NCBI GenBank assembly: GCA_016192705.1
Contig: JACPTQ010000014.1
Coordinates: 15,503 to 79,502, forward strand
Direction of reading: 5' to 3'
Length of the DNA: 64,000 bases
DNA from: Deltaproteobacteria bacterium
GTDB lineage: Bacteria > Myxococcota > JACPTQ01
Positions 16,705 through 48,486 of this stretch are shown in pieces; within the stretch, counting starts at the first letter, position 1, and each line of letters opens with the position of its first letter. The position numbers were made by a program, and so were the translations under genes. The notes beneath the pieces are model-generated. The model was not told the DNA's origin. It did no database searches and was given only the letters and a program-made list of their open reading frames with translations.

Positions 16705-17667
16705 TCACTTGCCGGGCCGTGACCATAACACGACGCGATTTCTCCCGGCACGCTTCGCGACATAGAGCGCCTCGTCCGCGAGCTGCAACAAATCGATCGC
16801 CTCCTCCGCGGGGTGAAACGGGAACGCGGCGATTCCGACGCTGGCGGTGATGCGCACTTCAACCTCGCCATTTTTAAAGCTGTGCGCTTCGAGCTTCGCG
16901 CGCACGCGCTCGCCGGCTTCGAGGATCCAATCGGGCGCATTCGTTGAGCGAAGGGGCGCGCCTTGTGCGTCGATCGCGGGCATAACGATGACGAACTCTT
17001 CGCCGCCGTATCGCGCGATGATGTCGGTTTCGCGGATCGCAGCCTTAAAAAGGTCCGACGCTTCCTTGAGAACAAAGTCGCCGACGAGGTGACCGAACGA
17101 GTCGTTCACATTCTTGAATTCGTCGATGTCGATGAGCGACACAGCGAGCTGCGTCCCATAGCGGCGCGCGCGCAAGAACTCGTACGCCAGCCGCTCGAGC
17201 AGATGTCGGCGGTTGTAAAGGCCCGTGAGCGAATCGGTCACCGCGAGGTCGCGGAGGCGATTCGTCGTTTCTTGGAGGAGGTCGTGCTGCTCTTTGACCT
17301 GCAAGTGGTTTCGAATGCGCGCCTCGACTTCGGTGATGTCGAACGGCTTTTGGAGGTACCCGTCGGCGCCGCGCGAGAAACCGCGGATGCGATCTTCGGT
17401 GTCGGCGAGCGCGGTGACGAGCAAGATGGGGAGATAGCCGGCGTTTGGGTCGCCTTTTAAGAGGCGGCAAACTTCGAATCCGTTTTGGCCCGGCATCAAG
17501 ATGTCGAGGAGAATGAGGTCGGGGCGCTCGGAGCGCGCGACGCGAAGCGTTTCGTCGCCGGTACGCGCGGTGACGACTTGATAGCCGGCGAGCGTGAGGG
17601 CTTCACGCAAAACATCGAGAGCGGTTTCGTCGTCGTCTGCGACGAGGATTTTCGGCGGCTTGTTCAT
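16705..17667 (-). CDS. response regulator with GGDEF diguanylate cyclase domain
   Basis: N-terminal REC (KILVADDDE), C-terminal GGDEF domain with RYGGEEF active-site motif. Confidence 0.85.
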   Translation of the reverse strand: MNKPPKILVADDDETALDVLREALTLAGYQVVTARTGDETLRVARSERPDLILLDILMPGQNGFEVCRLLKGDPNAGYLPILLVTALADTEDRIRGFSRGADGYLQKPFDITEVEARIRNHLQVKEQHDLLQETTNRLRDLAVTDSLTGLYNRRHLLERLAYEFLRARRYGTQLAVSLIDIDEFKNVNDSFGHLVGDFVLKEASDLFKAAIRETDIIARYGGEEFVIVMPAIDAQGAPLRSTNAPDWILEAGERVRAKLEAHSFKNGEVEVRITASVGIAAFPFHPAEEAIDLLQLADEALYVAKRAGRNRVVLWSRPGK

Positions 17668-17771
17668 CGTGAGCGTTGAACCCCGGGCCGGATACTCCCA
17701 TTCTTAGAGGTGAATGACAACAGCATCGTTTGGGGCGGGTTCAGCGACAAACCCTGATTCCCGGATAACGG

Positions 17772-18304
17772 GCAAGATTTTCGTGGGGCGGGCGGGATTT
17801 GGGCTTGCTCCGGCTCGCGGAAGTCCTCGGGTCTGACATGAAATGTGAGTCTCCACAGAATGAATCAAACATCATGAGAACGGCAATCCCACGCCCCATC
17901 GGCACCTCATCCCCTGCGCAAAGGTGCGCTGCGGGCTGCGCGGCACTGCCGCGACACCAAGTTCGGTCGAGCACAACCTGCATTTGCAACTCCGAGCACG
18001 CAAAGGTCTCGGGTGTTCCGTCGCCCTCGCGATTCTGTTCGCGTCGGCAAGCCACAGGCTTGCCAACGATTGCTCACAGAATACGCGACCCGGAGCAAGC
18101 CCAATCGCCGCCCGCCCAACCAGAATCCAGCTGTTTCCCTGGAGCGGCGGTTCAAGGACTTGGGGGTCGATCGAACGCTGGCCGACACCCAACGGGTGAA
18201 ACCTTCGTACCGCCCTCAAACCTAAAGAATACGTCCCCGGAAAGCGGCACCTGCCGACGCTACGCGCGGAAGATGACTGGTCGCTTAACCGGGGATCGAG
18301 GCGA
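17772..18304. mobile_element. MITE-like interspersed repeat, copy A (non-coding, mosaic)
   Basis: About 145 bp shares near-identity with 21019-21163 and 44524-44670. Imperfect terminal inverted repeat (left ..TTCCCGGATAACGG.., right ..CTTAACCGGGGA). Flanked by a perfect 11-bp direct repeat TCAGCGACAAA at 17761-17771 and 18305-18315. No conserved reading frame among copies. Confidence 0.7.
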
Positions 18305-21001
18305 TCAGCGACAAAGGCTCGCCCAAGTGGTCGAGTTGCCCACACTCCAAACGACGACGACGTTGCCGAAGGGATCGATGGCCATGGACGGAAAGAGCGC
18401 GCTTCCCGCGTCAGGGTTCGGGATGTCAACGGTACCCGCGTCGTCCCATCGGCCGCTACCTTCGGTGTCGAGGATGTACGATGAAATGAGAATGCGCCCC
18501 AATCCAGCGATCGTCTCGCTCCAGAGGATCGTCGCGCGCCCCGTTGGGGAGGTTGCGAGGGAGAGCGACTGCGAGGAAATCCCGGATGCCGTGTGGATTG
18601 TCGTGCTCGGTCCCCATCCCGCATCGATGAATGACGCGGAGCCGACGACTGAATAGTTCGGCGAGAAGAAGTTCGCTATCCATGCCACATGGATGCTGCC
18701 GTTCGGGGTCGCAGCGGCCGCCGTGTCGTAGAGGAGTCCACCGTCGGTCGACGCGACGGGGCCGGCGTCGCCCCAACCCGCGTCGGGTTCGAATCGGTTG
18801 CTTTCCACAAGCTGGCCACCGACATCGCTAAAAAACACCGCGACATTCCCGTCAGGGTCGCCGGCTGCCGAGACGGCGCCCGCGGGCGCAGTATTCCCAT
18901 CGATCCACAGCTCGCCTTGCCATCCCTGGCCAGGAACGTAACGATTTGCCCATATCTGATCGCTTGGGCCCGAGCGCGACCCAATGACCATTGTGTTCCC
19001 GGCTGAATCAACGACCGGTTTTATCACGTTGAGATTGCTCACGGCGGCGTCGGTCAGCGTTACGGGCGCGCTCCATCCAGCGTCGGGGTCAAATCGCGCG
19101 GCGCGCGAAACCTTGGGCATCGCCTTTGCCCAAACCGCGGTCACGCGCCCCCAGCCGTCGACAACGACTTTGGGCGCCTGCCCGTTTTCGAGCGAATCGG
19201 AGATCATGACGGGCGATGCGGTTGTCCAGCCGCCGTCGGGCGCGATTCGGATCGACCACACTTCGTTGAGGGCTCCAAACAGGCGGACGATCGTTGCATA
19301 ACCCGCGGAGTCGATCGCGACGACGGGGTTTCGTTGCACCTCGCCGCTCGGCTCAAGAATCTCCGGCGTTCGCCACCCCGCGGGCCAGCCGTCCGACGCG
19401 ACGTACCGCGCGGTCACGATCTTGTGAGTCCCCCCGGGCTCCGTGAGCTCCCATGCGACGAGCGCGTCGCCGTTTGGTCCCGTTGCGACTTGTGGTGCCG
19501 ACGATACGCTCCCATCGAGCGCGCTCGGCAGCGCAACCGGCGTTTCGCATCGAAGGCTTGACGAGGGCGTCGCGCTAACCGCGGTGCAAAATGGGCCAAC
19601 CCCGGCGTCGTTCGCCGCGCGCACAGCATAGAAGTACGGCTGACCGTTCGTCAGGCCCGTGTCGTTATACAAAGTCGAGGCGGAGGCATCGAGCGATGTG
19701 AACGGTCCGCCGGCATCGACCGCCCGATGGACTTCGTACGATGTTGCACCGATTGTCGCGAGCCACGTGAGCGAGACGCGCGCGTCTGATGGCGTCGCGA
19801 CGAGACCCGCTGGCGCCGCAGGAACCGTGAGCCGCGATGCCTCGGCCGATGCTGGCCCTTCACCTGAGCTGTTTGACGCGCGAACGATGTAGGTGTTCGT
19901 GACGCCCGGTGAACCGTTTGGGTCTGAAAAAACTGGCAAAATCGTGGTCCCGGCGTCAACGAAGACGCCACCATCTGCGTCCCGTCGATAAATGGAATAC
20001 GATGTCGCGGAAACCGATGCGTCCCACGTAAGTCCAACCAACGGATTGCCTCCCGTCGTGACGAGGTCGGTCGGCGCTGGCGGCCGCGTGAGAGCAACGA
20101 CTTCATTTGAGAACAGCCCCTCGCCTCCATCGTTTACGGCCATCACAACATAGAAATAGGAAGATCCCGCGATTAGGCCGGTGTCTGTGAACGTCGGTGC
20201 GCTTGTCGCGCCACGCTGAGCGTAAGGCTCGCCCGACACGATATTTCGGTAGACGACGTAGCTTGTCGCGCTGACCGAGGCGTCCCAAGATAACGCGATC
20301 GATGTATCGCCGCCCGCGGCGATAATTCCGGACGGTGCGGCGGGCCGCGTGAGCACTTGCGCTTCCAACGAATTCGGTCCCGCGCCCGTCGCGTTTTGCG
20401 CGCGCACGACATAGTAGTACCAAGTCCCGGGAGCGAACGATGTGTCCGAAAAGACTGTCGTTGATGCGTCGCCGATGTCGACCGGAGCCGCTGGATAAAC
20501 GCCGCGCGCGACAACGTACGACGTCGCGGACCAAGCCGTCGTCCAATTGATGCTGACCGATGTCGGATTAGCGATGGCCGAAAAAACCGTGGGTGCCGCG
20601 GGGAGCGTGAGGGCACTTGCTTCGACGGAGTTGTCGCTCCGTCCCGCGGGCGAAAGTGCGGCGACGACGTAGTAGTAAGTTGTGCCAGCCGCGAGCCCAG
20701 AGTCGCTGTACTCGGTTTGTGTCGGCGCCGCGATCTGCGTGTAGGGTCCGCCCGCAGCGGTCGCGCGCATGACCGCGTACCCCGTCGCGCTCGAGACGGC
20801 GTTCCACACAAGTTCGACCATGTTGAGGCTTCCCATGGCCGCGAGCCAATTTGGACCCGGCCCCGTTGTTCCTCCATCGGTCGCAATCCCACTGTCCGCG
20901 CCGGTTTGCGAGCCTTCCTTAAAGGGCGAAGTCCGAATACACGACGTGCCGATGGCAGCCATGACGGCCACAACCACGACCGGTCGAACGCGGATCGTCA
21001 T
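18305..21001 (-). CDS. secreted protein with tandem fibronectin type III-like repeats
   Basis: Signal peptide (MTIRVRPVVVVAVMAAIGTSC), at least 5 repeats of about 90 aa with recurring SATSY.V.R / Y.Y.V.A motifs typical of FN3, then a Trp/Gly-rich C-terminal region. Confidence 0.55.
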   Translation of the reverse strand: MTIRVRPVVVVAVMAAIGTSCIRTSPFKEGSQTGADSGIATDGGTTGPGPNWLAAMGSLNMVELVWNAVSSATGYAVMRATAAGGPYTQIAAPTQTEYSDSGLAAGTTYYYVVAALSPAGRSDNSVEASALTLPAAPTVFSAIANPTSVSINWTTAWSATSYVVARGVYPAAPVDIGDASTTVFSDTSFAPGTWYYYVVRAQNATGAGPNSLEAQVLTRPAAPSGIIAAGGDTSIALSWDASVSATSYVVYRNIVSGEPYAQRGATSAPTFTDTGLIAGSSYFYVVMAVNDGGEGLFSNEVVALTRPPAPTDLVTTGGNPLVGLTWDASVSATSYSIYRRDADGGVFVDAGTTILPVFSDPNGSPGVTNTYIVRASNSSGEGPASAEASRLTVPAAPAGLVATPSDARVSLTWLATIGATSYEVHRAVDAGGPFTSLDASASTLYNDTGLTNGQPYFYAVRAANDAGVGPFCTAVSATPSSSLRCETPVALPSALDGSVSSAPQVATGPNGDALVAWELTEPGGTHKIVTARYVASDGWPAGWRTPEILEPSGEVQRNPVVAIDSAGYATIVRLFGALNEVWSIRIAPDGGWTTASPVMISDSLENGQAPKVVVDGWGRVTAVWAKAMPKVSRAARFDPDAGWSAPVTLTDAAVSNLNVIKPVVDSAGNTMVIGSRSGPSDQIWANRYVPGQGWQGELWIDGNTAPAGAVSAAGDPDGNVAVFFSDVGGQLVESNRFEPDAGWGDAGPVASTDGGLLYDTAAAATPNGSIHVAWIANFFSPNYSVVGSASFIDAGWGPSTTIHTASGISSQSLSLATSPTGRATILWSETIAGLGRILISSYILDTEGSGRWDDAGTVDIPNPDAGSALFPSMAIDPFGNVVVVWSVGNSTTWASLCR

Positions 21002-21018
21002 ATCAACATTATATATAG

Positions 21019-21373
21019 CCTGATTCCCGGTTAACGGCCGAGACCTGCGTGGGGCGGTCGGGTTTGGGCTCGCTCCGGCTCGCAAAAGTCCTCGGGTCTG
21101 ACATTAAATGTGAGTCTGCACGAAACGAATCAAACGTCACGAGAACGGCAATCCCACGCCCCATCGGCACCTCATCCCCTGCGGATGCGAGCCTTTGCGT
21201 GCCCAATCTCCGCCCGCCCAATTAGGACTCGGCCGTTTTCCTGGAACGGCGCTTACGATACTTGGGGGTCGATCGATCGTCAGCCGACACCGAGCGGGTG
21301 AACTCTTTGTACCGCCCCCAAGCCCAGACCCCGCCCGTCCCACGCAAATCTTGCCCGTTATCCGGGAATCAGG
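21019..21373. mobile_element. MITE-like interspersed repeat, copy B (two inverted copies of the left module)
   Basis: Left end 21019-21062 and right end 21330-21373 are about 40-bp near-perfect inverted repeats (CCTGATTCCCGGTTAACGGCC.. / ..GCCCGTTATCCGGGAATCAGG). Core shared with copies A and C. Lies between divergent FN3 and OM-barrel genes. Confidence 0.7.
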
Positions 21374-21450
21374 GCGTTTACGGACCCCCCGGCGATGCGG
21401 TATCGTCCGCGAGCAGATTTCGACGCAGGTTTGAGAGGAGGGTGCATTTG

Positions 21451-22914
21451 ATGCGGCACACGCGATGGGTCGGGCTCTCTGTTGTTGTCTTGGGTTTCGC
21501 GCAGAGCGCGGGCGCGAGCGACATGTACTACCAAGACTTTTTGTTTGGCGAACGCGCAACCGGGATGGGCGGCGCGTTTACCGGGCTCGCGAACGACCCG
21601 GCCGCAGCGTATTACAACCCGGCTGGCCTCGCCTTTGAGCTCGACCAATATTTGTCGGGGAGTCTCAACTTTTTCAATTTTGACAAAGTGACGATGAAAG
21701 ACGGGATGCGGCTCGGGACGGTTTCACAAACGCTCGAGTCGGCGCCCGTCGCGCCTTTCCCGTCGGCTGGGTTCATTCCCGCCGAGTGGCGCGGCAACTA
21801 CTTCGCGTTCACGACGGTTGTGCCGCACCTCACGCGACGCAGCTTTTCGGGGTCGCTCGAAAGCGGCGCTCAGAAGCTGAACACGTCGCTCTCGGAGGAA
21901 GACACGACCGTGTGGATTGGCGGGACCTACGCGCGACGACTTGGGAAAAAATTCGCGATGGGTGCGTCGATCCTATACGGGACCCGAACTTACTCGCGCG
22001 TGCGCGACGACACGGCGGTCACGACCAACACGAACGCGGCGACGTCGGGCACCGCGGAGATTGAAAGCCAACGCATCGAGACGTTTCGGACGGGGTTTGA
22101 CGTCAAGCAGCTCGTGATTCGGCTCGGCTTTTTGATCTTGCCGACGCCGCAGCTTCGCATCGGTCTCTTGCTCGGGATTCCGTCGATCACGATCAGCGGA
22201 AGCGGGTCGCGCTCGTGGCGGTCGGCGCTCATCAACATCGATAGTTCGCCCGTCGTGATTGGCCCGGGCGATACGCGCGCAACCGTGATTTCGGCGCAGT
22301 ACAAGACTTTTGAGAAAGGGCTCGACGCCGAGTCGAAACGGCCGTTCGAGGCGCGGCTTGGGATTTCGTATGCTTTTACGCCGCGACTGACGGTTGCGGC
22401 CGACGTCTCGATTCACTTGCCAACCGAGTATCTGCGGATGCCGAGCGCGACGATCCCGGGCTCGCCCGAAGATCCAAACGACCACGAGTTCGTCAATAAT
22501 GTGACGAGAAACTTTGTCCACAACTACAACCTTGGTTTCGAGTGGTACATCGGCGGTCGCGTCCCGCTTAGGCTTGGCGCGTTTACGAATTTTTCGTCGG
22601 CGCCGGAAATCCCCGCGAACCCGACGGAGGCGTATTTGTCGCAAATTCACTTGATGGGCTTTACGGGAAGCATCGGCTACACGGGCGAACGCGGGAGCAT
22701 CAACGTTGGGTTCATGTATGTCGCGGGGAACGGCTACGGGATTATTTATGACAACGCGGCGTTGCGTCGCGTCGAAATTGGGCAGCGGTCGATTCAGATT
22801 TTCGTGTCGGGCGGTATCAGCTTCTTGTCGGAGAATGTGAAGGGGCTCTTCATCAAGAGGCGAAAGCCGTCGCGTGATGAACAGATTAAAGAGGAGGTTC
22901 CATGGCGCGAGTAG
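21451..22914 (+). CDS. outer-membrane beta-barrel protein, FadL/OmpP1-like (putative hydrophobic-compound transporter)
   Basis: Signal peptide (MRHTRWVGLSVVVLGFAQSAGA) followed by LFGERATGMGGAFTGLANDPAAAYYNPAGLAF, resembling the FadL-family N-terminal signature; beta-strand-like periodicity. Confidence 0.5.
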   Translation: MRHTRWVGLSVVVLGFAQSAGASDMYYQDFLFGERATGMGGAFTGLANDPAAAYYNPAGLAFELDQYLSGSLNFFNFDKVTMKDGMRLGTVSQTLESAPVAPFPSAGFIPAEWRGNYFAFTTVVPHLTRRSFSGSLESGAQKLNTSLSEEDTTVWIGGTYARRLGKKFAMGASILYGTRTYSRVRDDTAVTTNTNAATSGTAEIESQRIETFRTGFDVKQLVIRLGFLILPTPQLRIGLLLGIPSITISGSGSRSWRSALINIDSSPVVIGPGDTRATVISAQYKTFEKGLDAESKRPFEARLGISYAFTPRLTVAADVSIHLPTEYLRMPSATIPGSPEDPNDHEFVNNVTRNFVHNYNLGFEWYIGGRVPLRLGAFTNFSSAPEIPANPTEAYLSQIHLMGFTGSIGYTGERGSINVGFMYVAGNGYGIIYDNAALRRVEIGQRSIQIFVSGGISFLSENVKGLFIKRRKPSRDEQIKEEVPWRE

Positions 22915-24692
22915 GCGCACTGTCGCTCGTCGTTATCGCCTGCTTCACGGCGCGCGCGGAGGCGGCCGTCGAAATCATGAAGGAAGCCGACGTTAAGCCC
23001 GGAATGAAGGGGTACGGGCTGTCGGTTTTTAAGGGCGGCGCGATCGAGCGGTTTGATGTCGAGGTGATAGGGACGCTCAAGAACGTCATGCCGAAGCACA
23101 GCATCATCTTGGTGCGATGCGCGGGGCAGGGGCTTGAGCGTACGGGGATCATCGCGGGAATGAGCGGGAGTCCCGTTTATATCGATGGGAAGCTCATCGG
23201 CGCAATCGCGTATGGGTGGGGGTTTTCGAAGGACCCTGTGGGCGGCGTGACGCCGATCGAGGCGATGCTTGAGGAGGGGCGGCGGCCGCTGCACGGCGAG
23301 TTGGCGAGGAGAGGGAATAAACGCAAAGACGCAAAGACGCAGAGCGAAGAGATTTCTGTCATTGCCCCTTCGCGCCTTGGCGACTTTGCGTTGAATCAGG
23401 CTGCCGTGGACGGCGCGATTCGGCCGCTTGCGACGCCCGTGGTGATGGCTGGCTTTGATCCGCGGGTTGTTGAGCGGCTGCGACCGGAGCTTGCGAATTT
23501 TGGGATGATGCCGGCGCAAGGCGCGGGCGGAGGGCCGATGGCAGCACCAGGAGGCGCGGCGCTCGATTTGACGCCAGGCGCGGCGATCGGTGTTCAGCTG
23601 ATGCGCGGCGACCTGAACATGACAGGCGTTGGGACGGTGACGCACCGCGATGGCAATCGCGTACTCGCGTTTGGGCACCCGATGTTCGGGCTCGGCGAGC
23701 AGTACATGCCGATCACGACCGCATGGGTTCACCACGTCTTTGCGGGGATGGCGCAGTCTTTCAAGATGGCGAGCCCCATCGATGTCGTCGGGTCGCTTAC
23801 GGGCGATCGGCAGCCGTGCATCGTCGGTGAGGTCGGGCGAAAGGTCGACACGATTCCGGTGACGGTCAACATCGCGCGCGCCGATGGAAGCTACAAGCGC
23901 ATTTACAAGGTCCAGGTGCTGAAGCACCGCCTCTTTTTTCCAGTTCTCGCACGGGCCGCGGTTGTGAGCGCCATGCTCGCCGCCGAGGGCGACCTTGCGG
24001 AAGCGACTTACTCGATGGGCGTCACCATCAAGATGAAGGGGCGCGAGCCGCTCAAACTCAAGACCGACATTTTTAGCCCGATTGGTCTCTTCGACCCGCG
24101 GGCGATGTTTTTTGGGACGGGCGTGCTCGCGGTCTCGGCGCTCCTCAATAACCCCTTCGCACCCGTGGAAATCGAGTCGGTCACGCACGACATTTCGATC
24201 GCATTTAAGCGCGATTTCGCGATGATTGAATCGGTCTATCTCGCCGAGTGGGAAGTTGTTGAGGGCGGGACGGTCGATCTGTACGTCGTGCTTCGGCCAA
24301 TTCGCGGCGAGCCGTTTACGATCAAAGTGCCGGCGCGAATCCCCGATGGGCTGGGCGGACGGGACGCCGTGATTGAAGTCGCCGCGGGGCGCGAAACGCG
24401 GCCCGATCAGGCGCCGCCGCATACGCTCGACGACTTCATCCGCAACATTCGCGAAGAGTACGACGCGCGGACAATCGTCGCGACGGTCGGGCGGAACGCA
24501 TGGGGTGTGAAGATGCGGGGCGCGAAGCTTGAGCATTTGCCGCGAACGTTTCTTGAGGTGCTGACGCCGACGCAGACGGTCGTGGGCGGTGGCATGGTGT
24601 ACAACGACGTTGAAGTCACAAAGAAATCGATCGGGCGGCTGGTTTCTGGGCGCGCGCATTTGCGGGTGCGCGTGGTTGAGAGAAAGGACTGA
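22902..24692 (+). CDS. SpoIVB-like serine peptidase (peptidase S55 family), secreted
   Basis: Signal peptide; motif GIIAGMSGSPVYIDGKLIGAIAYGW closely resembles the S55 (SpoIVB) catalytic Ser region. Overlaps upstream OM barrel gene by 13 nt and downstream gene by 1 nt (TGATG). Confidence 0.65.
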   Translation: MARVGALSLVVIACFTARAEAAVEIMKEADVKPGMKGYGLSVFKGGAIERFDVEVIGTLKNVMPKHSIILVRCAGQGLERTGIIAGMSGSPVYIDGKLIGAIAYGWGFSKDPVGGVTPIEAMLEEGRRPLHGELARRGNKRKDAKTQSEEISVIAPSRLGDFALNQAAVDGAIRPLATPVVMAGFDPRVVERLRPELANFGMMPAQGAGGGPMAAPGGAALDLTPGAAIGVQLMRGDLNMTGVGTVTHRDGNRVLAFGHPMFGLGEQYMPITTAWVHHVFAGMAQSFKMASPIDVVGSLTGDRQPCIVGEVGRKVDTIPVTVNIARADGSYKRIYKVQVLKHRLFFPVLARAAVVSAMLAAEGDLAEATYSMGVTIKMKGREPLKLKTDIFSPIGLFDPRAMFFGTGVLAVSALLNNPFAPVEIESVTHDISIAFKRDFAMIESVYLAEWEVVEGGTVDLYVVLRPIRGEPFTIKVPARIPDGLGGRDAVIEVAAGRETRPDQAPPHTLDDFIRNIREEYDARTIVATVGRNAWGVKMRGAKLEHLPRTFLEVLTPTQTVVGGGMVYNDVEVTKKSIGRLVSGRAHLRVRVVERKD

Positions 24693-26863
24693 TGGCGATG
24701 AAGATGCGAGTGGGACGATGGGCGCGCGGGTTGGCGGTTTGCGCGATGGCGCTCGGTTTTGAGGCGGGGTCGGCGCTGGCGGTTTCGACGACCGAGTGGA
24801 AACTTGAGACGGCTGAGGGTTTTCGCGCGGGCAAGCTGGAGGGCGTCGCTGTTTCGTCGCTCGGAGAGGCGACGGCTGGCTTTCGTCTCAAGGGGCAAAA
24901 GACGACCGAGCAGCTCGTCTGGTGTCTCGCGCGCGCGACCAAGGAACTTGTCTATTTTGGTACGGCGTCAAACGGGCTCATTTACAAATGGGAAGCGGGG
25001 CGGCTTGCGGTCGCGCATAAGACGGGGCAAACAGCGGTGACGGCGCTGGTCGCGGATGGAGCGGGCGGCGTTTTTGCGGGGACGATTCCAAACGGGAAGA
25101 TTTACAAGGTTGCTGCGGACGGGACGTTGACCGAGTTTGCGAAGCTCGCCGTGAAATACATTTGGGCGCTGGCGTTCGATGCGGCGTCGCGGACGCTGTA
25201 CGTTGGAACGGGGCCCAAGGGGACGGTTTACAAGGTCGATGAGAGCGGGCGCGCGTCGATTTTGGCTGACACGAAGACGGAACACGTCTTGGCGCTCGAG
25301 CTTGATGCGTCGGGGCAGATCTACGCGGGGACGGCGCGAAACGGGCTGCTTTTAAAGATTTCGAAAGCGGGGAAGATGGTGGTTGTCGCGGATATTGGCG
25401 GCGACGAGGTGCGTGCGATTGCGCTTCACGGCGGGGCGATTTTCGCGGCGACGAATGGCAGTCAGCGCCGTGGGATGGTGCCGCCGGGGTTGCCGGTGTT
25501 TGGCGGGTCGTTCATCGCGGCGCCCATCGTGGTTCAACCTGCGGGCGTGGTCGGACGACCGGTCGGGGTGCCCGTCCCAGCGGCCTTTCCGCGCGACCCA
25601 GGGCAGGGGACGCTCTATCGAATCGAAGCTGAAGGGCGCGTCGAGACGCTCCTTCAGTTGCCGCGCGGTTTTTTTACCGCGATCGAAGTCGACCCCGATG
25701 GGAATGTCTACGTCGCCGTTGGCGAAGATGGGCGCGTCTATCGGGTGACGCCCGACAAGATTGTTCACACGGTTTTTGATTTGAAGGAGAAGCAGGTGCT
25801 GGCATTGTCGGTCACGGGGGCGGAGCCCAAGCTCCTCGCGACCGGAAACGCCGGGGCGGTGTACCAAGTTTCGGGTGGGCGCGCCCGAAACCCGCGGTTC
25901 ACGTCGCCGGTGTACGACGCGAAGTTCGTATCGCGTTGGGGTGTCGTCGATTATCGCGCGAGTGGGAAAATTACCATTCGCACGCGCAGTGGAAATACGC
26001 CGAAACCCGACACGACGTGGTCGGACTGGTCGGACGGCGCGAGCGATGCGGCGAAAGTGACGAGCCCGCCTGCGCGTTATTTGCAGTTGCGCGCGGAGTG
26101 GTCGGATCACGACGCGGTGCTCAGGCAGATTCGCGTTTTTGTGCTGAACCAAAATCAGCGCGCGCGGCTCACGGAGGTAACGGTCGATGGGGTTGGAGCG
26201 GTTTCGCCGCCCATCGTCCAGCCGGTTGGAATGCCCACAGGATACCCATCGCCCATGGTGCATCGCGCGCCAATGATGCCGTTCCAACACGCGATGCCGG
26301 GCGCGGCGCTTCCGCGGCGCAATCCCACGAAGCGGCTCGCGTGGAAGGCCGAGAACCACGACGGCGATCCGCTGGTTTATTCGGTCTATGTGCGCGAGGA
26401 GGCGTCGCAGAACTGGATTCACCTGACGCGCAAGGGACCCATCCACGAAACTTATTTCAGTTGGGACACGGAGTCGTTCCCCGACGGCTGGTACCGCGTC
26501 AAAGTGGTCGCGAGCGACGAGCGCGCGAATCCACCGCACCTTGTCTTGACGCACGAGTGGGTGACGCATTCGGTGCTCGTCGATAACCGCGAGCCGGACA
26601 TCGTCGATCTTGTTGTTGAGGGCGACCTAACGGTCCGTGGAATGGCGCGCGACAATTTCAGCACCATCAAGCGGCTCGAATACTCCCTCGACGGAGGCGA
26701 TTGGGTGCTCGTTTTCCCGGAGGGAGACCTTCACGACGGGACCGCGGTTCGGTTTAGATTCCGGTTGCCGAAGCCAGCGATGGGTGCGCATACGCTCCAT
26801 GTTCGCGCGATTGACGCCGGGAACAACATTGGCGTTGCGAGCCGGATTTTCACGATCAAATAG
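24692..26863 (+). CDS. secreted beta-propeller repeat protein (NHL/SMP-30-like blades)
   Basis: Signal peptide (MAMKMRVGRWARGLAVCAMALGFEAGSALA), recurring G(T/K)(I/V)YKV / GNVYVA blade motifs. Start coupled to S55 peptidase stop. Confidence 0.55.
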   Translation: MAMKMRVGRWARGLAVCAMALGFEAGSALAVSTTEWKLETAEGFRAGKLEGVAVSSLGEATAGFRLKGQKTTEQLVWCLARATKELVYFGTASNGLIYKWEAGRLAVAHKTGQTAVTALVADGAGGVFAGTIPNGKIYKVAADGTLTEFAKLAVKYIWALAFDAASRTLYVGTGPKGTVYKVDESGRASILADTKTEHVLALELDASGQIYAGTARNGLLLKISKAGKMVVVADIGGDEVRAIALHGGAIFAATNGSQRRGMVPPGLPVFGGSFIAAPIVVQPAGVVGRPVGVPVPAAFPRDPGQGTLYRIEAEGRVETLLQLPRGFFTAIEVDPDGNVYVAVGEDGRVYRVTPDKIVHTVFDLKEKQVLALSVTGAEPKLLATGNAGAVYQVSGGRARNPRFTSPVYDAKFVSRWGVVDYRASGKITIRTRSGNTPKPDTTWSDWSDGASDAAKVTSPPARYLQLRAEWSDHDAVLRQIRVFVLNQNQRARLTEVTVDGVGAVSPPIVQPVGMPTGYPSPMVHRAPMMPFQHAMPGAALPRRNPTKRLAWKAENHDGDPLVYSVYVREEASQNWIHLTRKGPIHETYFSWDTESFPDGWYRVKVVASDERANPPHLVLTHEWVTHSVLVDNREPDIVDLVVEGDLTVRGMARDNFSTIKRLEYSLDGGDWVLVFPEGDLHDGTAVRFRFRLPKPAMGAHTLHVRAIDAGNNIGVASRIFTIK

Positions 26864-42619: not shown

Positions 42620-44419
42620 CTAGGCGTACATCTGGTCGAGGAGCGTCTGGTATTTTTCGGTCGTGAACTTCCGCTTCACTTTGAGCGTCGGCGTCAATTC
42701 GCCCGTGTCTTGCGCGAGATCGTGATCGAGGATCACAAACTTCTTGATCGATTCATACGACGCGAGCTCACGGTTTTTTTCCTCAATGACACCCTGAAGG
42801 AGCGCCCGAACCTCCGGCCGTTGCGAAAGCTCGGCGAAGCTCCCCGCCGAAATCCCTTGGTGCGCTGCCCACGCTTTCACATTCTCCTCGTTCAACGTGA
42901 TCAGCGCTGTGAGGTAATTTCGTTTGTCGCCGTGGACCATCACTTGGCTCACAAAGCGGCTCGTTTTCAGCGCGTTCTCGATGTTTTGCGGCGCGACGTT
43001 CTTCCCACCGGCCGTGACAATCAAATCCTTCTTGCGATCGGTGATCGTCAAGATCCCACTCTTATCGATGACGCCGATGTCGCCCGTGTGGAACCAACCA
43101 TCCGGCGTCAGGCACGCGCGCGTGTCGTCCGGCTTTTTATAGTATTCGCGCATGATGTTCGGCCCGCGCAAAAGCACCTCGCCGTCCTCCGCGATCTTGC
43201 AGTCGACGCCCGGGAGCGCCGGCCCGACCGACCCGAAGCGATACATGTCGAGTCGATTGACGTGCGACGCGGCCGTCGTTTCGGTGAGCCCAAACCCTTC
43301 GAGGATGAGGAGCCCAGCCGCATGAAAGAACTCGGCGATCTCGCGCGACAATGGGGCGCCGCCCGACACGAAGAATTTGAGGTTGCCGCCGAATCGCGCC
43401 TGCAGCTTTGAGAAGACGAGCTTCGTCGCAATCTTGTATTTGAAGGCGAGCCACCCCGTCGGCAGATCGCCGCGCTGCTTCATCACCGAAACCTCGCGCC
43501 CGACCTTAACGGCCCAATCGAAAATCTTCTTTTTGAGGCCACCCGCGGTTTCCACGTCGCCTTTGACTTTGCCGTACACCTTCTCGTAAATGCGCGGCAC
43601 CGACGCCAAGAACGTCGGCCGAATCTCGCCGACGTTGTCGATCAACTTTTCAATCGACTCGGCGAACGCGATCATCGAGCCCGTTTGAATCGACGCGAAC
43701 ACCAAGATCTTCGCGAAGATGTGTGCGAGCGGCAAAAACAACACTTGCTCGTCGTCTTCGCCGAGCGTCAGCGCTTGGTTAACCGCGTCACACTCGAACA
43801 CGAAATTCGCGTGCGTCAAGACGACGCCCTTCGGCGGGCCCGTTGTTCCTGATGTGTAAACGAACGTGATCGGATCGCCGGGCTTAATCGCCGACGTGCG
43901 CGCTTCAAACTCCGCGCTGTGCGCAACGCCATACTCCGCGCCGCGATTCAGAAAGTCGGCGTAGCCCACGACCCACGCCGCATCGACGCCGTTCCCGACG
44001 GTTCCCGAGACCAAGATGACCTTCTCAACCGACTTGAGGTTGCCGCGAATCTTTTGGAGCTTCGCCAGCTGCGCCGCATCTTCCGCGACGACGTACCGCG
44101 ACTCCGAATCGTTCAAAATATATTCACACTGATCCGGTGTGTTCGACTGGTAAATCGGCACCGTGATGCCGCCCGCGCCGATAATGCCGAAATCCGATTC
44201 GACCCACTCCGCGCGCGAGTTCGACAGAATCGCAACGCGATCGCCCGCCTTCATGCCGGTCGCCATGAGCGCGAGCGAAAAGTTCTTTGACGTTTGCGCC
44301 CACTGATTCCACGTTACGGCGCGCCACTGCCCGTCGACCTTTTTCTTGAGCGCAATTCGATCGCCACTTGTCGCGACGCGGCTCTTGAACACCTCGAACA
44401 TATTTCGTGCGGTTGCCAT
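42620..44419 (-). CDS. long-chain-fatty-acid--CoA ligase (AMP-binding superfamily)
   Basis: AMP-binding signature YTSGTTGPPKGVVLTHANF and C-terminal adenylate-forming domain. Confidence 0.85.
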   Translation of the reverse strand: MATARNMFEVFKSRVATSGDRIALKKKVDGQWRAVTWNQWAQTSKNFSLALMATGMKAGDRVAILSNSRAEWVESDFGIIGAGGITVPIYQSNTPDQCEYILNDSESRYVVAEDAAQLAKLQKIRGNLKSVEKVILVSGTVGNGVDAAWVVGYADFLNRGAEYGVAHSAEFEARTSAIKPGDPITFVYTSGTTGPPKGVVLTHANFVFECDAVNQALTLGEDDEQVLFLPLAHIFAKILVFASIQTGSMIAFAESIEKLIDNVGEIRPTFLASVPRIYEKVYGKVKGDVETAGGLKKKIFDWAVKVGREVSVMKQRGDLPTGWLAFKYKIATKLVFSKLQARFGGNLKFFVSGGAPLSREIAEFFHAAGLLILEGFGLTETTAASHVNRLDMYRFGSVGPALPGVDCKIAEDGEVLLRGPNIMREYYKKPDDTRACLTPDGWFHTGDIGVIDKSGILTITDRKKDLIVTAGGKNVAPQNIENALKTSRFVSQVMVHGDKRNYLTALITLNEENVKAWAAHQGISAGSFAELSQRPEVRALLQGVIEEKNRELASYESIKKFVILDHDLAQDTGELTPTLKVKRKFTTEKYQTLLDQMYA

Positions 44420-44523
44420 TGGAAAACCTCCTTGGCCAGAAACGTCGCGGATTATTGCGGTCGCCCGCGTTGGGTGTCAAGGAGTCCAACATGCGTCAGG
44501 TCGGGGACGAGGCGCCTTGCGTT

Positions 44524-45252
44524 GCCTGATTCCCGGTTAACGGCCAAGACCAGCGTGGGGCGGTCGGGGTTGGGCTCGCTCCGGCTCGCGAAAGTCCTCG
44601 GGTCTGACATGAAATGTGAGTCTGCACGAAATGAATCAAACATCATGAGAACGGCAATCCCACGCCCCATCGGAACCTCATCCCCTGCGGACGCGACCCG
44701 GAGCAAGCCCAATCCCCGCCCGCCCAACCAGAAACTGCCCGTTTCCCTGGAACGTCGGCTAGGAGACTTGGGGGTCGATCGATCGTCAGCAGACACCCAG
44801 CGGGTGAACTCTTCTAACCGCCCTCAAGCCCAGAAAACACGTCTCCGAAAAACGGTCCGCCCGGATTTGCGTAGGGTCGGCAGGGGCGCAGCGTAGGCGC
44901 GCCTATTCCGCGAGCAGTCTGTCGGCAAGCCAGCGGCTATTTCCGCTGCCTTCTGCGGATGCTCCAGTGCGAGCGGAATGGCAAGGGCGACGGAACACCC
45001 GAGATCTTTGTGTGCTCGGAGTTGCAAATGCCGGTTGTGCTCGACCGAACTTGGTGTCGCGGCAGTGCCGCGCAGCCCGCAGCCCGACCTTCGCGCAGGG
45101 TCAGAGGTGTCATGTATGCACGGATTTCCATTTATTCCCATGTTTTCATTTGAGCGACTTGCGAACGGATTGAGGGCCAGACCCGAGGACGTCGGCGCGC
45201 CGAAGCGGGCTCCTGTCGACCCTCGCGCTCACGAGCAAACGAACTGCTTAAC
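44524..45252. mobile_element. MITE-like interspersed repeat, copy C (mosaic)
   Basis: Left 145 bp near-identical to copies A and B. Contains in inverted orientation an ~85-bp module present in copy A (17940-18030). Flanked by a perfect 22-bp direct repeat CGGGGACGAGGCGCCTTGCGTT at 44502-44523 and 45253-45274. Confidence 0.7.
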
Positions 45253-45355
45253 CGGGGACGAGGCGCCTTGCGTTTATGGTGCCGACGGGCCAGACTTCGA
45301 ACTCCGTTCACCGAGCGGGCGAACGGGACCGGCCGGTGGTGATGGAGGTGGCGCA

Positions 45356-45802
45356 ATGACTCTGGATCTCGCAACGGTTCAATCGATGATGGAAGGTGGT
45401 CTCCCCTACGTGAAGAAGCTTGGCGTCAAGCTGGAGGAGGGCGGTGGGAATCGAGCGTTTCTGCGGCTTCCGTGGGACCCAACGAATACGAACCACGTCG
45501 GTACGCTTCACGCGGGGGCGCTCTTCACGTTTGCCGAAACAGCGGGCGGCGCCGGGATCCTTTTCTCGTTCGACCTTTCGAAGGTTCGCCTTCTCGCGAA
45601 GCAAGCGACGATCGAATACAAGCGCCTCGTCACCGGCGATGTGACAAGCGAAGTCGTTGTACCGCCTGCGGATGTCGCGCGCGTCATGGCTGAAGTCGAT
45701 GCGGGTGGGCGTGCGACGTACGATTTACGCGTCACGCTGAAGGACGATTCCGGCGAAGCCGCGGCGCTCGTCTCGATCACGTACCACTTCAAAAAACTTT
45801 AG
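45356..45802 (+). CDS. hotdog-fold acyl-CoA thioesterase (PaaI/YiiD-like)
   Basis: About 148 aa with ..NHVGTLHAGALFTFAETAGG.. hotdog core; strong SD GGAGG 7 nt upstream of ATG 45356. Confidence 0.6.
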   Translation: MTLDLATVQSMMEGGLPYVKKLGVKLEEGGGNRAFLRLPWDPTNTNHVGTLHAGALFTFAETAGGAGILFSFDLSKVRLLAKQATIEYKRLVTGDVTSEVVVPPADVARVMAEVDAGGRATYDLRVTLKDDSGEAAALVSITYHFKKL

Positions 45803-47343
45803 ACCTGCTGCACGACGGGAATGTTGGCAACACCGGTCGGGTGTGTGACCGACGCGGGTTCCGCCTTGGCGCGAGCGAGCGACGAGACTTTTTCAACAAG
45901 CGGCGAAAAGTCGCGTTCCTTTCGAACGTATCCGTCGACGTTGAGCCCAGCAACGATTCTCGACGCCTCGTAGGCCGGTCGCCCGGAGTGAATTACGATG
46001 GGGACCGTGGCGGTTGCCGGCGCGCGACGAAGCGCCTTCACGACGCCCACCGATGTCGCGCCGTTTACGAGCAGGTCGAGGACGATCGCAACGGGGTCAA
46101 CTTCGCGCGCGAGATCGATTGCGCGTTCGCACGTCTCGGCCGCAAAGACCGCGAAACCGGCGGCCATGAACGCTTCGCGCGCCATGCGCAAAATGAGCCG
46201 ATCGTCGTCGAGGATGACAACGCGTGGCCGATCGGCGAACTCGCGGATGAGCGCCCGAATTTTTGAACGCCCCGCGGGACCGTCGGATAGGGCGATGCCG
46301 ATTCCGTACGTCGCGTCGTTTGAACCCAGCGGATAACGTTGAACCCACGCTACCTCGCCGCCCACGCGAATCGGAGCGAGAAGGCTCGGGACCGCGAGCT
46401 TCACGGTGATCGGCGACCCCACCGGAATTCGCCGCGCCGAGTGAACAAGGATTTCGGACGATGAAAGGCGCGCGACGACATCGGTCAGGTCGTCGTCGTC
46501 GGCGAGCGAGGCCTCGATTTCGGTTGGGAGCGATTCGGCCGATCGGCCCCGCATCGAGAGGAAGCGGCGCGTGAGGTTGGTGATCTCTTCAAAGGTGAAC
46601 GGTTTTTGGAGGTATCCGTCGGCACCGAGAGCGCGGCAGATTTCGAAGGCGTCGCCTTCACGATGGGTCGCTGTTGCCACGACCGGTATTGTGCGAATCC
46701 CGTCGCGCGCTTTGAGGAATTGGCAGAATTTCGCGCCGACTTCGGCCCTGTCTTGAAGGTCGATGACGACGAGCGCAATTCGGTGGGCGAGCAAAAGTTC
46801 CTTGCCGTCACCGACCGAATCCGCGGTGACGACATCGAATCCGCCGCCTGAGAGGCCACGGGCGAGCGAAGATGCGGCGTGCACATCGGAGTGGAGTACG
46901 AGAATTCGGTGTGGCGCGGCGTTTTGCGGTCGAAGCCGCGCGGCGGGCAGCGCTTCGGTCTCCACCTCGATGGGGCGCTCGCAAGCCCGTCGGATCTCCT
47001 CGATCGTTTCGTTCATCTCGACGAGGCGCGCGCGATCCCACGGCTTTTCGAGAAAAAAATGGGCGATCGTGTCTCCTTCGTTCTCAGGTGTGGCGTGCGC
47101 CGACGTGAGAACGCGAACGACTCCCGGATACCGGTTGCGGACCATCGCGAGAAACTCCGAACCGCTCATTCCCGTCATGCGTTGATCGGAAATCACAGCG
47201 TCTGGAACCGTCTCTTCGAGCGCGTCGAGGGCGGCCTCGGCCGAATCGAAGAGGTGGCACTCGTGATCGCTGCAACGCGTTAGCTCGCGGCGTAGCGCGC
47301 TCAAGATTGACGGCTCATCGTCAACAAGAAAAAGGACTCGCAT
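45799..47343 (-). CDS. multi-domain response regulator (REC - REC-like - PilZ-like - REC)
   Basis: N-terminal REC (VLFLVDDEPS..D), a second receiver-like segment, a central segment resembling PilZ, and a C-terminal REC (VVILDDD..). Confidence 0.65.
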   Translation of the reverse strand: MRVLFLVDDEPSILSALRRELTRCSDHECHLFDSAEAALDALEETVPDAVISDQRMTGMSGSEFLAMVRNRYPGVVRVLTSAHATPENEGDTIAHFFLEKPWDRARLVEMNETIEEIRRACERPIEVETEALPAARLRPQNAAPHRILVLHSDVHAASSLARGLSGGGFDVVTADSVGDGKELLLAHRIALVVIDLQDRAEVGAKFCQFLKARDGIRTIPVVATATHREGDAFEICRALGADGYLQKPFTFEEITNLTRRFLSMRGRSAESLPTEIEASLADDDDLTDVVARLSSSEILVHSARRIPVGSPITVKLAVPSLLAPIRVGGEVAWVQRYPLGSNDATYGIGIALSDGPAGRSKIRALIREFADRPRVVILDDDRLILRMAREAFMAAGFAVFAAETCERAIDLAREVDPVAIVLDLLVNGATSVGVVKALRRAPATATVPIVIHSGRPAYEASRIVAGLNVDGYVRKERDFSPLVEKVSSLARAKAEPASVTHPTGVANIPVVQQV

Positions 47344-47565
47344 CCGACGACCTCCAAATTCTAATTCTGCCTACGTTATCCCACACCGTATTTTCGGCGC
47401 CGCGTGGCGCGCTGCCTTGTTAGAAAAGCAAATCGTGGGCCGAGGCGCGGACCCAAGTCGCGCGGGAAAAATCGCAGTGATAACCAGCCGGCGTGCCCGA
47501 TCTCTCGGCACGACAGCGGATCGAGAGCTTAGAATTCCAATCGTTCGATCATTTTTCTTCAGAAG

Positions 47566-48486
47566 TCAGGAGCGCGGGTGCAGGCGATCGATGACGGATT
47601 TGAGGCGCTTGCGATCAACATGGGTGTAAATCTGCGTGGTCGCGATGCTTTGATGGCCGAGGAGAAGTTGCACGGAACGGAGGTCGGCGCCGCGTTCGAG
47701 GAGGTGCGTCGCGAAGGAGTGGCGGAGCGTGTGCGGAGAAAACGTCGCGACGATTCCGGCGTCGCGGGCGCGTCGGCGAAGCAATTTCCAAAAACCCTGG
47801 CGCGTCATCGCGCGTCCGCGCGGCGAGAGGAAAAGCGCGCTCTCGGTCGCGCGTCGGACGAATCGTGGTCGCGAGAGCTTAAGGTAGGCGCGAAGGGCGT
47901 CGAGCGCGATTTCGCCGACGGGCACGACGCGTTCCTTGCCGCCTTTCCCGCGGCAGCGCACGATGCCGCGCGTTTCGTCGACGCTGTTCATGGTGAGCGA
48001 CACGAGTTCGCTGACGCGGAGCCCGGTCGCGTAAAGGAGTTCGAGCATCGCGCGGTCGCGCAACGTCGCGCGGGTTTCCTTGGGCGGCGGCGCGAGGAGG
48101 CGTTCGACGTCATCGAGCGAAAGTGCATGCGGCAAGCGGCGCCCGGCTGGTGGAACCGCGACTTCGCGCGCGGGATCGTCGGTTGCGCCGAGCTCGTCGT
48201 GCGCATAGCGGTGAAGTGTGCGAACAGCCGAGAGGGCCCGCGCAATTGAGCGAAGGCCAAGCCCCCGGTGAGTGAGCGATGACACGAACCGGCGAACGTC
48301 GTCTTCAGTGGCCGCGGTCAGCGATGTTCGTCCCGACTTGTCGAGCGTCGCGCGATACGCGTCGAGGTCTGCGGCGTACGCGGTTACGGTGCGCGGCGAC
48401 AAGTTGCGTTCGAGTCGAAGGTGATCGAGGAATGCCGCGAGCTCGTCGATAAGCGCCACGTGAGCGACGATAGCCGGCCCAGGTGT
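47566..48486 (-). CDS. tyrosine recombinase, XerC/XerD family
   Basis: C-terminal catalytic region ..HTLRHSFATHLLERGADLRSVQLLLGHQSIATTQIYTHV.. with R..HxxR..Y residues; N-terminal core-binding domain begins near ..ALIDELAAFLDHLRLERNLSPRT. Upstream 75 track codons probably not translated. Confidence 0.8.
   Translation of the reverse strand, partial: TPGPAIVAHVALIDELAAFLDHLRLERNLSPRTVTAYAADLDAYRATLDKSGRTSLTAATEDDVRRFVSSLTHRGLGLRSIARALSAVRTLHRYAHDELGATDDPAREVAVPPAGRRLPHALSLDDVERLLAPPPKETRATLRDRAMLELLYATGLRVSELVSLTMNSVDETRGIVRCRGKGGKERVVPVGEIALDALRAYLKLSRPRFVRRATESALFLSPRGRAMTRQGFWKLLRRRARDAGIVATFSPHTLRHSFATHLLERGADLRSVQLLLGHQSIATTQIYTHVDRKRLKSVIDRLHPRS

What the first reader, a model, noticed from the sequence alone, without database searches (positions are those of the whole stretch)
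17761..18315. Family of mosaic MITE-like repeats with inverted termini and perfect flanking direct repeats (three copies in 64 kb)
Three non-coding elements (17772-18304, 21019-21373, 44524-45252) share a near-identical ~145-bp left module beginning CCTGATTCCCGG(A/T)TAACGG. Copy B is two inverted left modules (about 40-bp near-perfect inverted ends). Copies A and C have a different right end (..CTTAACCGGGGA) and share an ~85-bp internal module in opposite orientations. Copy A is flanked by a perfect 11-bp direct repeat TCAGCGACAAA that includes the stop codon of the FN3 gene. No copy has a conserved reading frame, and one lacks the ATG present in the others. This points to a non-autonomous mobile element or structured RNA family; three copies in one window suggests many genome-wide. 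All three sit in promoter-proximal or intergenic positions.
Basis: seen in the sequence. Interest (0 to 1): 0.7.

Follow-up and report, generated by a model that had tools for sequence, protein, structure and literature searches.

The report
Mosaic MITE-like repeat family
Three short non-coding repeats with inverted ends, two of them flanked by duplicated target DNA, are most likely copies of a small parasitic "jumping" element private to one uncultured bacterium: real, not in any library searched here, but an ordinary kind of thing.

Summary
Three non-coding elements (A 17752-18302, B 21018-21374, C 44524-45264) share a 166-bp left module (89-95% identical) and a 165-bp second module (71-82%). 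A and C also share a ~165-bp module in opposite orientations.

All three end in inverted copies of a ~20-67-nt terminal motif. It has two types: CCTGATTCCCGGWTAACGG and CCTCG(A)TCCCCGGTTAAGC.

A is flanked by a perfect 11-bp direct repeat. B has none.

No reading frame is conserved and no Rfam family matches. Nothing matched in the genome, metagenome, viral, plasmid or phage collections, or among 5.8 billion predicted proteins.

The host is an NCBI MAG ("Deltaproteobacteria bacterium", HYY84). Its nearest relative shares only ~60% protein identity, so no empty-site test was possible.

Indirect evidence points to more copies. Independent k=31 assemblies of up to four sequencing runs all break 27-36 nt inside four of the element ends. 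The window's own copies share no 30-mer there.

Best reading: a lineage-specific, modular, non-autonomous inverted-repeat transposon (MITE-like). Its transposase was not seen. Its target duplications are unusually long and of variable length. The kind is ordinary; the family is new.

The parts
17752..18302 (+). Element A (551 bp): L - X - R1 - inverted type-2 terminus
17741..17751 (.). Left copy of A's direct repeat TCAGCGACAAA (12/13 identical if extended to 17739-17751, GTTCAGCGACAAA)
   Evidence: simulation, P(>=11) about 0.002
18305..18315 (.). Right copy of A's direct repeat; contains the stop codon of the FN3 gene (18305-21001, minus strand)
17753..17918 (+). L module of A. The first ~67 nt are the terminal motif T, type 1
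17919..18083 (+). X module of A. Its 3' part is a 67-nt palindrome at 18027-18088
   Evidence: (I1, 115 nt at 94%)
18084..18247 (+). R1 module of A: an internal inverted copy of T (T') followed by the core2 hairpin
   Evidence: (D2, I6)
18248..18302 (-). Type-2 terminal motif of A (..GCTTAACCGGGGATCGAGGC), inverted
   Evidence: 20/31 against A's left end; 22/31 against C's right end
21018..21374 (+). Element B (357 bp): L (21019-21183) - R1 (21185-21318) - inverted type-1 T (21319-21374). No flanking direct repeat
   Evidence: I5; longest common string 5
21319..21374 (-). Right terminus of B. It is 93% identical (52/56) to A's left terminus, closer than to B's own left terminus (45/57)
   Evidence: (I2)
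44524..45264 (+). Element C (741 bp): L - R1 - linker - inverted X' - inverted diverged L' (type-2 terminus)
44502..44523 (.). Left copy of C's perfect 22-bp direct repeat CGGGGACGAGGCGCCTTGCGTT
45253..45274 (.). Right copy of C's 22-bp direct repeat. Its first 12 nt are also the last 12 nt of the type-2 inverted repeat
44525..44689 (+). L module of C
44691..44855 (+). R1 module of C
44928..45094 (-). X' module of C, inverted relative to A, with a 23-nt insertion
   Evidence: (I1)
45095..45263 (-). L' of C: a diverged L (61-62% identical) whose outer end is the type-2 terminus

Best explanation
These are copies of a lineage-specific family of small, non-coding, modular transposable elements with terminal inverted repeats (MITE-like).

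Shown: each copy is bounded by inverted copies of a terminal motif T. The invariant outer ~19 nt is (C/G)CCTGATTCCCGGWTAACGG. A second subtype reads CCTCG(A)TCCCCGGTTAAGC. Both copies that pair a type-1 left end with a type-2 right end (A and C) are flanked by direct repeats of the target.

Inferred: a transposase encoded elsewhere in the genome (none lies in the window) binds the T termini and inserts the element through staggered target cuts. This leaves duplications of about 10-13 bp (A) and 10-22 bp (C).

Inferred: B has type-1 termini at both ends, its right terminus is nearly identical to A's left terminus, and it has no duplication. It is therefore a rearranged or recombinant derivative, not a primary insertion. 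The mosaic of modules (L, X, R1, L') reflects internal deletion, inversion and recombination between at least two subfamilies.

The insertions are tolerated because they sit in intergenic DNA: downstream of the FN3 stop codon, and in two divergent promoter regions.
For: - The repeat family is real and far beyond chance.
- Terminal inverted repeats are present in all three copies: 56 nt in B, ~30 nt in A and C, and up to ~170 nt of L against L' in C.
- Direct repeats abut the ends: 11 bp in A (P about 0.002) and 22 bp in C.
- Removing an element plus one repeat copy restores compact intergenic spacers of 73 nt (A) and 185 nt (C), read from the sequence.
- No coding potential, and no hit when a six-frame translation was searched against 5.8 billion proteins.
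- No known RNA family.
- The four type-1 ends are identical over 19 nt, while positions 20-45 of T vary. That is what is expected of a protein-binding terminus.
- Evidence for further copies: Logan k=31 contigs from up to four independent runs stop at the same base inside four element ends. These are 17779 (3 runs), 21345 (3 runs), 44551 (1 run) and 45228 (4 runs). Their other ends differ between runs. Within the window, the first shared 30-mers start only at 17821 and 44592.
Against: - No transposase and no full-length parent element were seen.
- No empty site was found: every sample that carries the flanking genes breaks inside the element.
- Only three copies are directly observed.
- B lacks a duplication.
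- The two duplications differ in length. C's overlaps its own right inverted repeat by 12-13 nt, which a simple staggered-cut model does not predict.
- Exact-pattern scans of GTDB representative genomes, JGI metagenomes and IMG/VR found nothing, so spread beyond this organism is unshown.
Confidence: 0.6

Rival explanations
1. Immobile relics. The repeats are decayed remnants of old insertion-sequence ends or segmental duplications, shuffled by homologous recombination or template switching between palindromic sequences. They would no longer be mobilised by anything, and the flanking repeats would come from the original events or from microhomology-mediated insertion.
For: - The copies differ by 5-29% depending on the module.
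- The architecture is mosaic with inverted modules.
- B has no duplication.
- The duplication lengths are inconsistent.
- No transposase lies in the window.
- The junctions of B-right and C-left share GCGTT and border genes that are neighbours in relatives. This hints at recombination between copies.
Against: - The 22/22 and 11/11 perfect flanking repeats argue for insertions much younger than the divergence between copies.
- The outer 19 nt of four ends are perfectly conserved.
- The assembly breaks imply further near-identical termini elsewhere.
Confidence: 0.17
2. A family of structured non-coding RNAs or cis-regulatory leaders, encoded upstream of genes and duplicated with their regulatory regions.
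For: - The predicted folds are strong (z -5.8 and -6.6).
- A few compensatory changes occur in the long stem: 6 of 99 pairs.
- A 27-nt invariant block lies in L.
- All copies sit upstream of genes.
Against: - No Rfam hit, even at permissive E-values.
- Both strands fold equally, as any DNA inverted repeat does.
- Wobble mismatches show no clear strand bias (9 against 4).
- No conserved promoter or terminator.
- Modules X and L occur in both orientations relative to the neighbouring genes.
- An RNA gene does not explain the flanking direct repeats.
Confidence: 0.08
3. Invertible promoter segments (invertons): short DNA segments between inverted repeats that a site-specific recombinase flips to switch the neighbouring surface-protein genes on and off.
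For: - B is 357 bp between 56-nt inverted repeats. It lies in the divergent promoter region of an FN3 surface protein and a PorV/FadL-like outer-membrane protein.
- A tyrosine recombinase gene lies 2.3 kb from C.
- Assembly graphs break inside the inverted repeats.
Against: - The recombinase scores as housekeeping XerD, above the equivalog cut-off.
- The break positions do not coincide with the 29 nt that A-left and B-right share exactly.
- Inversion does not explain the direct repeats flanking A and C.
- A sits downstream of a stop codon.
Confidence: 0.06

Closest known systems
Bacterial MITEs and mosaic intergenic repeats (Correia/NEMIS elements of Neisseria, ERIC, and the BOX and RUP elements of Streptococcus pneumoniae); comparison from my own knowledge, not tested by sequence
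   Same: Small (0.35-0.75 kb), non-coding and intergenic. They have terminal inverted repeats and flanking target duplications, and fold into long hairpins. They are built of modules that are combined differently in different copies, as boxA/B/C are.
   Different: No sequence similarity to anything in Rfam, plasmids or phages. The duplications are 10-22 bp and of variable length, instead of the 2-9 bp of fixed length usual for MITEs. Each element carries three copies of a ~60-nt terminal motif: two at the ends and one internal and inverted.
IS1634 family (IS1634, IS1549), which gives long direct repeats of variable length
   Same: IS1549 and IS1634 give direct repeats of 8-514 bp depending on the copy, with no mechanistic model, and the family's ends follow C-----YT (PMC2266710). 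Here the flanking repeats are 11-13 bp and 22 bp, and the ends CCCTGATT of A-left and B-right fit that weak consensus.
   Different: No transposase is available to test membership. The 3-base end consensus is too weak to count as evidence. The family's typical duplication is 5-6 bp.
IS4 subgroup of the IS4 family
   Same: Target duplications of 10-13 bp (PMC2266710). These match the 13-bp (A) and 10-bp (C) duplications obtained if the element ends are placed by inverted-repeat symmetry.
   Different: The end consensus -AATR--------WTW is not seen. No transposase was found.
IS1202 group
   Same: Unusually long duplications of 16-28 bp, and an extra internal transposase-binding site next to the inverted repeat (PMC10132070). 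This compares with C's 22-bp repeat and the internal T' copy.
   Different: Ends of that family are 5'-TGT...ACA-3'. Here they are (C/G)CCTGATT, so that defining feature is not met.

Membership tests
MITE (non-autonomous inverted-repeat transposon) | Small size and no coding capacity | tested here: met
   Sizes are 357-741 bp. No frame is conserved, a frameshifting indel is present, and substitutions show no codon-phase bias. A six-frame search found no protein homologue.
MITE (non-autonomous inverted-repeat transposon) | Terminal inverted repeats | tested here: met
   B 45/57; A 20/31; C 20/34 plus the L/L' similarity over ~170 nt; four type-1 ends identical over 19 nt.
MITE (non-autonomous inverted-repeat transposon) | Target-site duplication of a characteristic length at every copy | tested here: inconclusive
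   A has 11 bp (12/13 if extended). C has 22 bp (or 10 bp plus 12 nt of its own end). B has none. Duplications are present and significant in 2 of 3 copies, but their length is not constant.
MITE (non-autonomous inverted-repeat transposon) | Many dispersed copies in the genome | tested here: inconclusive
   Three copies in 64 kb. Further copies are inferred only from identical contig break points in up to 4 Logan assemblies, at places where the window's copies share no 30-mer. The rest of the MAG could not be read.
MITE (non-autonomous inverted-repeat transposon) | A cognate autonomous element with matching ends that encodes a transposase | not testable with these tools
   The window has no transposase gene among the genes scanned, which were the element-flanking genes and those between B and C. 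The only recombinase found is XerD. The host genome is absent from the scannable collections.
MITE (non-autonomous inverted-repeat transposon) | Empty sites in relatives or strains | tested here: inconclusive
   All Logan samples carrying the flanking genes break inside the elements. The nearest relatives share about 60% protein identity and are not syntenic at these sites.
REP / BIME / REPIN (mobilised by RAYT) | Short (20-40 nt) palindromic units, no target duplication, an associated RAYT (IS200-like) gene | tested here: not met
   The units are 165 nt or longer. Direct repeats flank A and C. No RAYT gene appeared among the window genes scanned.
IS1202 group derivative | Ends 5'-TGT...ACA-3' (PMC10132070) | tested here: not met
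   The ends are (C/G)CCTGATT... and ...AATCAGG(G/C).
Any Rfam RNA family | Covariance-model score at or above the gathering threshold | tested here: not met
   There were 0 hits at gathering threshold. Only a 27-bit chance hairpin hit (MIR1437, gathering threshold 168) appeared at E<=1.
Inverton (invertible promoter) | Both orientations present in a population, plus a dedicated invertase | not testable with these tools
The nearby recombinase is XerD.

The most novel reading that the evidence does not exclude
The family may be moved by an uncharacterised transposition mechanism. That mechanism would make long target duplications of variable length (5?, 11-13 and 22 bp). It would also preferentially insert next to sequences resembling its own right end: C's left flank carries the last 12 nt of C's right inverted repeat at the same spacing. 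This would be akin to, but distinct from, the unexplained variable duplications of IS1634/IS1549 or the long ones of the IS1202 group. The copies may also have mediated the rearrangement that separated the acyl-CoA ligase from the S55-peptidase operon.
Probability: 0.12. Interest if true: 0.5.

Novelty: new member of a known kind. Interest (0 to 1): 0.3.

Why it matters
In practice, the repeats explain why short-read assemblies of this organism fragment at these loci. They also mark non-coding DNA that should not be annotated as genes. In biological terms, they add a MITE-like family from a deeply branching, uncultured deltaproteobacterial/Myxococcota-like lineage. Two copies sit in divergent promoter regions and one separates an FN3 surface-protein gene from a diguanylate-cyclase response regulator, so they may affect expression. 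The only feature of wider interest is the long, variable flanking duplication that partly copies the element's own end. If it proves general across many copies, it would point to an unusual transposase.

Tried and rejected
- Exact-pattern scans for more copies. A 21-mer from the core against GTDB representative genomes gave one chance hit, L001, with no flanking similarity. The same 21-mer and a 22-base terminal pattern against JGI metagenomes gave 0 hits. The terminus against IMG/VR gave 0 hits.
- Concatenated six-frame translation of C against 5.8 billion proteins, hoping for spurious ORF calls on other copies: 0 hits.
- blastn of C against plasmids and phages: no match.
- Full-text search for the terminus sequence and for the run accessions: nothing.
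- Reaching the rest of the 121-kb NCBI contig through the look-up of encoding contigs: only short Logan contigs were returned. One (L017) runs 289 nt past the window and ends in unrelated sequence.
- Homologue search with the FN3 protein, to get Logan contigs reaching A-right and B-left: no near-identical fragment exists.
- Empty-site test by synteny: the relatives are too distant.
- A composite transposon A-FN3-B, suggested by the 93%-identical outer inverted repeats: rejected, because no duplication flanks 17752-21374.
- Inversion polymorphism between A-left and B-right as the cause of the assembly breaks: the break positions are off by one base in opposite directions.
- Target motif CCGGGGACGAGGCG elsewhere in the window: seven matches at up to 2 mismatches. 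Two are C's own repeat copies and the other five are near the chance expectation of 2.5.
- A Xer/dif-type or integron attC reading: the recombinase is housekeeping XerD, and by my own reading of the ends there is no dif- or attC-like consensus.
Full report
OBSERVATION

Reading the three regions and a whole-window repeat search confirm a repeat family found only at three places. Profile searches with each module find nothing else in the 64 kb.

The 19-nt terminus CCTGATTCCCGGWTAACGG occurs four times without mismatch, against 0.04 expected by chance. An internal 25-mer occurs three times, against 0 expected.

ANATOMY

A terminal motif T of about 67 nt opens the left module L (166 bp), which is 89-95% identical between copies.

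A second module, R1 (165 bp, 71-82% identical), begins with an internal inverted and diverged copy of T (T'). A conserved hairpin, core2, follows it.

The three elements are built as follows:
- A (17752-18302) is L - X - R1 - inverted type-2 terminus.
- B (21018-21374) is L - R1 - inverted type-1 T.
- C (44524-45264) is L - R1 - a 72-nt linker - inverted X' - inverted L'.

L' is a diverged L (61-62% identical). Its outer end is the type-2 terminus CCTCG(A)TCCCCGGTTAAGC, which A's right end also carries.

X is 94% identical over 115 nt between A and C, but in opposite orientation (I1).

So every element is bounded by inverted T-type termini, and two subfamilies of terminus exist. The corrections are: A starts at 17752/3; L is 166 bp rather than 145 bp; the shared internal module is 115-165 nt rather than 85 nt; and B is not two inverted L modules.

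FLANKING REPEATS

A is flanked by the perfect 11-bp repeat TCAGCGACAAA at 17741-51 and 18305-15. If the ends are placed by inverted-repeat symmetry, this becomes 12/13 over G[T/A]TCAGCGACAAA.

C is flanked by a perfect 22-bp repeat at 44502-23 and 45253-74. B has none.

I drew 20,000 random position pairs in the window at the same spacings. P(longest common string >=11) came to about 0.002. The only 22-nt matches were 2 draws, which I infer landed on C itself.

Deleting an element plus one repeat copy restores short intergenic spacers: 73 nt between the FN3 stop codon and the diguanylate-cyclase start, and 185 nt between the divergent acyl-CoA ligase and thioesterase genes.

NOT CODING, NOT A KNOWN RNA

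No frame is open in all copies, and a 1-nt indel shifts A's frame. Variable sites are spread 23/15/24 over codon phases (p=0.31).

Rfam gives nothing at gathering thresholds and only a chance hairpin hit at E<=1.

Both strands of B fold far better than shuffles (z -5.8 and -6.6). Any inverted repeat would do the same.

In the 52-pair T/T' stem, mismatches are 9 GT against 4 AC, so there is no clear strand asymmetry. Six of 99 predicted pairs show double changes among the three copies, which is too few to weigh.

CONTEXT

The neighbours are ordinary chromosomal genes:
- a sigma-54 activator;
- a response-regulator diguanylate cyclase (16705-17667, minus strand);
- an FN3-domain protein (18305-21001, minus strand);
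- a PorV/FadL-like protein, an S55 peptidase and a beta-propeller protein (21451-26863, plus strand);
- an acyl-CoA ligase (42620-44419, minus strand);
- a YiiD-type thioesterase (45356-45802, plus strand).

No transposase turned up among the genes scanned. The tyrosine recombinase at 47566-48711 scores as housekeeping XerD, above the equivalog cut-off.

SOURCE AND SPREAD

The flanking proteins are identical to MBI3071116-MBI3071160. These belong to an NCBI MAG named 'Deltaproteobacteria bacterium' (locus tags HYY84_...) and sit on a 121-kb contig. The next-best ligase homologue is only 60% identical, and some further hits carry Polyangia or Myxococcales names. No close relative is therefore available.

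Exact-pattern scans of GTDB representatives, JGI metagenomes and IMG/VR found nothing. The same holds for blastn against plasmids and phages and for a six-frame protein search. The family is so far private to this organism.

INDIRECT EVIDENCE FOR MORE COPIES

The same organism is present in Logan assemblies (k=31) of runs SRR12113385, -390, -422, -426 and -428. The element-flanking genes were found in four of these (all but -385).

Contigs carrying the flanking genes end at exactly the same base in every run that has them:
- 17779, which is 27 nt into A's left end (3 runs);
- 21345, which is 29-30 nt into B's right end (3 runs);
- 44551, which is 27 nt into C's left end (1 run);
- 45228, which is 36 nt inside C's right end (4 runs).

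Their other ends differ from run to run.

Within the window, the copies share no 30-mer at those places. The first shared 30-mers start at 17821 and 44592. The graph branching must therefore come from further near-identical termini outside the window. This is an inference from assembly behaviour, not a count.

No sample shows an empty site.

MECHANISM

The best-supported reading (confidence 0.6) is a non-autonomous inverted-repeat transposon family, mobilised in trans.

Shown: the inverted termini, the flanking duplications, the lack of coding capacity and the intergenic location.

Inferred: a transposase binds the conserved ~19-nt termini and inserts by staggered cuts.

Both duplication-bearing copies pair a type-1 left end with a type-2 right end. 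I take this to be the functional IRL/IRR combination.

B pairs two type-1 ends and has no duplication. Its right T is 93% identical to A's left T but only 79% identical to its own left T. I infer that B is a recombinant or rearranged derivative.

UNEXPLAINED FEATURES

First, C's 22-bp repeat overlaps its right inverted repeat. The 12 nt CGGGGACGAGGC are the end of the element, since A's right end carries the same motif. Yet they also sit in C's left flank, 10 nt before the left end. This could be a tandem-copy remnant, insertion targeted next to an end-like sequence, or a truly 22-bp staggered cut in a preferred target. None of these can be chosen with two cases.

Second, B's right flank (G|GCGTTTACGG) matches the end of C's repeat plus its right flank (GCGTT|TATGG) at 9 of 10 positions. 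The C-left and B-right junctions look like the two sides of one type-1/type-1 insertion with a 5-bp repeat GCGTT.

In two of three relatives, the ligase is divergently adjacent to the S55-peptidase/beta-propeller pair. These are orthologues at 40-41% identity over their full length. In the window, those genes are 18 kb apart. The ligase side is bordered by C's left end, and the S55 side (through the PorV-like gene) by B's right end.

This hints that recombination between copies split an ancestral intergenic region, which would explain B's missing duplication. The evidence is thin: the matches are short, the divergence is deep, and a flank alignment was not significant.

COMPARISON WITH KNOWN SYSTEMS

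The elements work like bacterial MITEs and mosaic intergenic repeats (Correia, ERIC, BOX, RUP; from my own knowledge). They share no sequence with any library searched.

Long or variable duplications have precedents:
- IS1549 and IS1634 give 8-514 bp, with the family end consensus C-----YT (PMC2266710).
- The IS4 subgroup gives 10-13 bp (same paper).
- The IS1202 group gives 16-28 bp, but its TGT...ACA ends are not met here (PMC10132070).

Family membership cannot be assigned without the transposase.

VERDICT

This is a real, lineage-specific MITE-like mosaic repeat family: a new member of a known kind. Interest is modest (0.3). It would rise only if the long, variable and partly self-copying duplications prove general across many copies.

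Noticed in passing
window 22902-26863 and 42620-44419; loci L022 and the JGI 3300047160 contig: In two of three relatives, the acyl-CoA ligase is divergently adjacent to the S55-peptidase/beta-propeller gene pair (orthologues at 40-41% identity). In the window these genes are 18 kb apart, and each side is bordered by a type-1 element terminus (C-left and B-right) sharing GCGTT at the junction. This may be an element-associated rearrangement.
   Followed up: partly
window 21002-21045 (minus strand): A perfect TATAAT lies 6 nt upstream of the FN3 gene's ATG, and there is no Shine-Dalgarno sequence. This suggests a leaderless mRNA. The element terminus 15-16 nt further upstream offers only a weak -35-like TTAACC. 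The promoter scan did not flag this site.
   Followed up: no
window 48554 onward; L003 (SRR12113422): One Logan contig matches the window exactly from 45228 to 48553. It then diverges completely inside the 5' part of the xerD gene (47566-48711, minus strand). This is either a structural variant or an assembly join in that sample. In addition, the 381-aa XerD ORF is not in the protein collection as such.
   Followed up: partly
window 50922-51512 and 52582-52989, 54442-54486: Four copies of a 54-nt repeat encode a Cys-rich motif (..NCGxCG..). There are also long GGC/GGT glycine-rich repeats inside large ORFs (about 49855-53142 and downstream). Such repeats are typical of myxobacterial-type secreted repeat proteins.
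   Followed up: no
window 18027-18088 (X module of A); 44928-45000 in C: The 3' part of module X is a 67-nt imperfect palindrome with a GGCAAGCC...GGCTTGCC stem. The copy in C carries a 23-nt insertion inside it.
   Followed up: no
L017 1-289 (beyond window position 64000): The Logan contig that runs 289 nt past the right end of the window stops in AACCACAGAGACACAGAGGAATGGAG. This is unrelated to the element and may be another repeat or a coverage break.
   Followed up: no
window 44451-44480 (minus strand): A near-consensus sigma-70 promoter (TTGACA-18-AATAAT, 11/12) lies in the flank between element C and the acyl-CoA ligase start. That gene therefore does not depend on the element for a promoter.
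   Followed up: no
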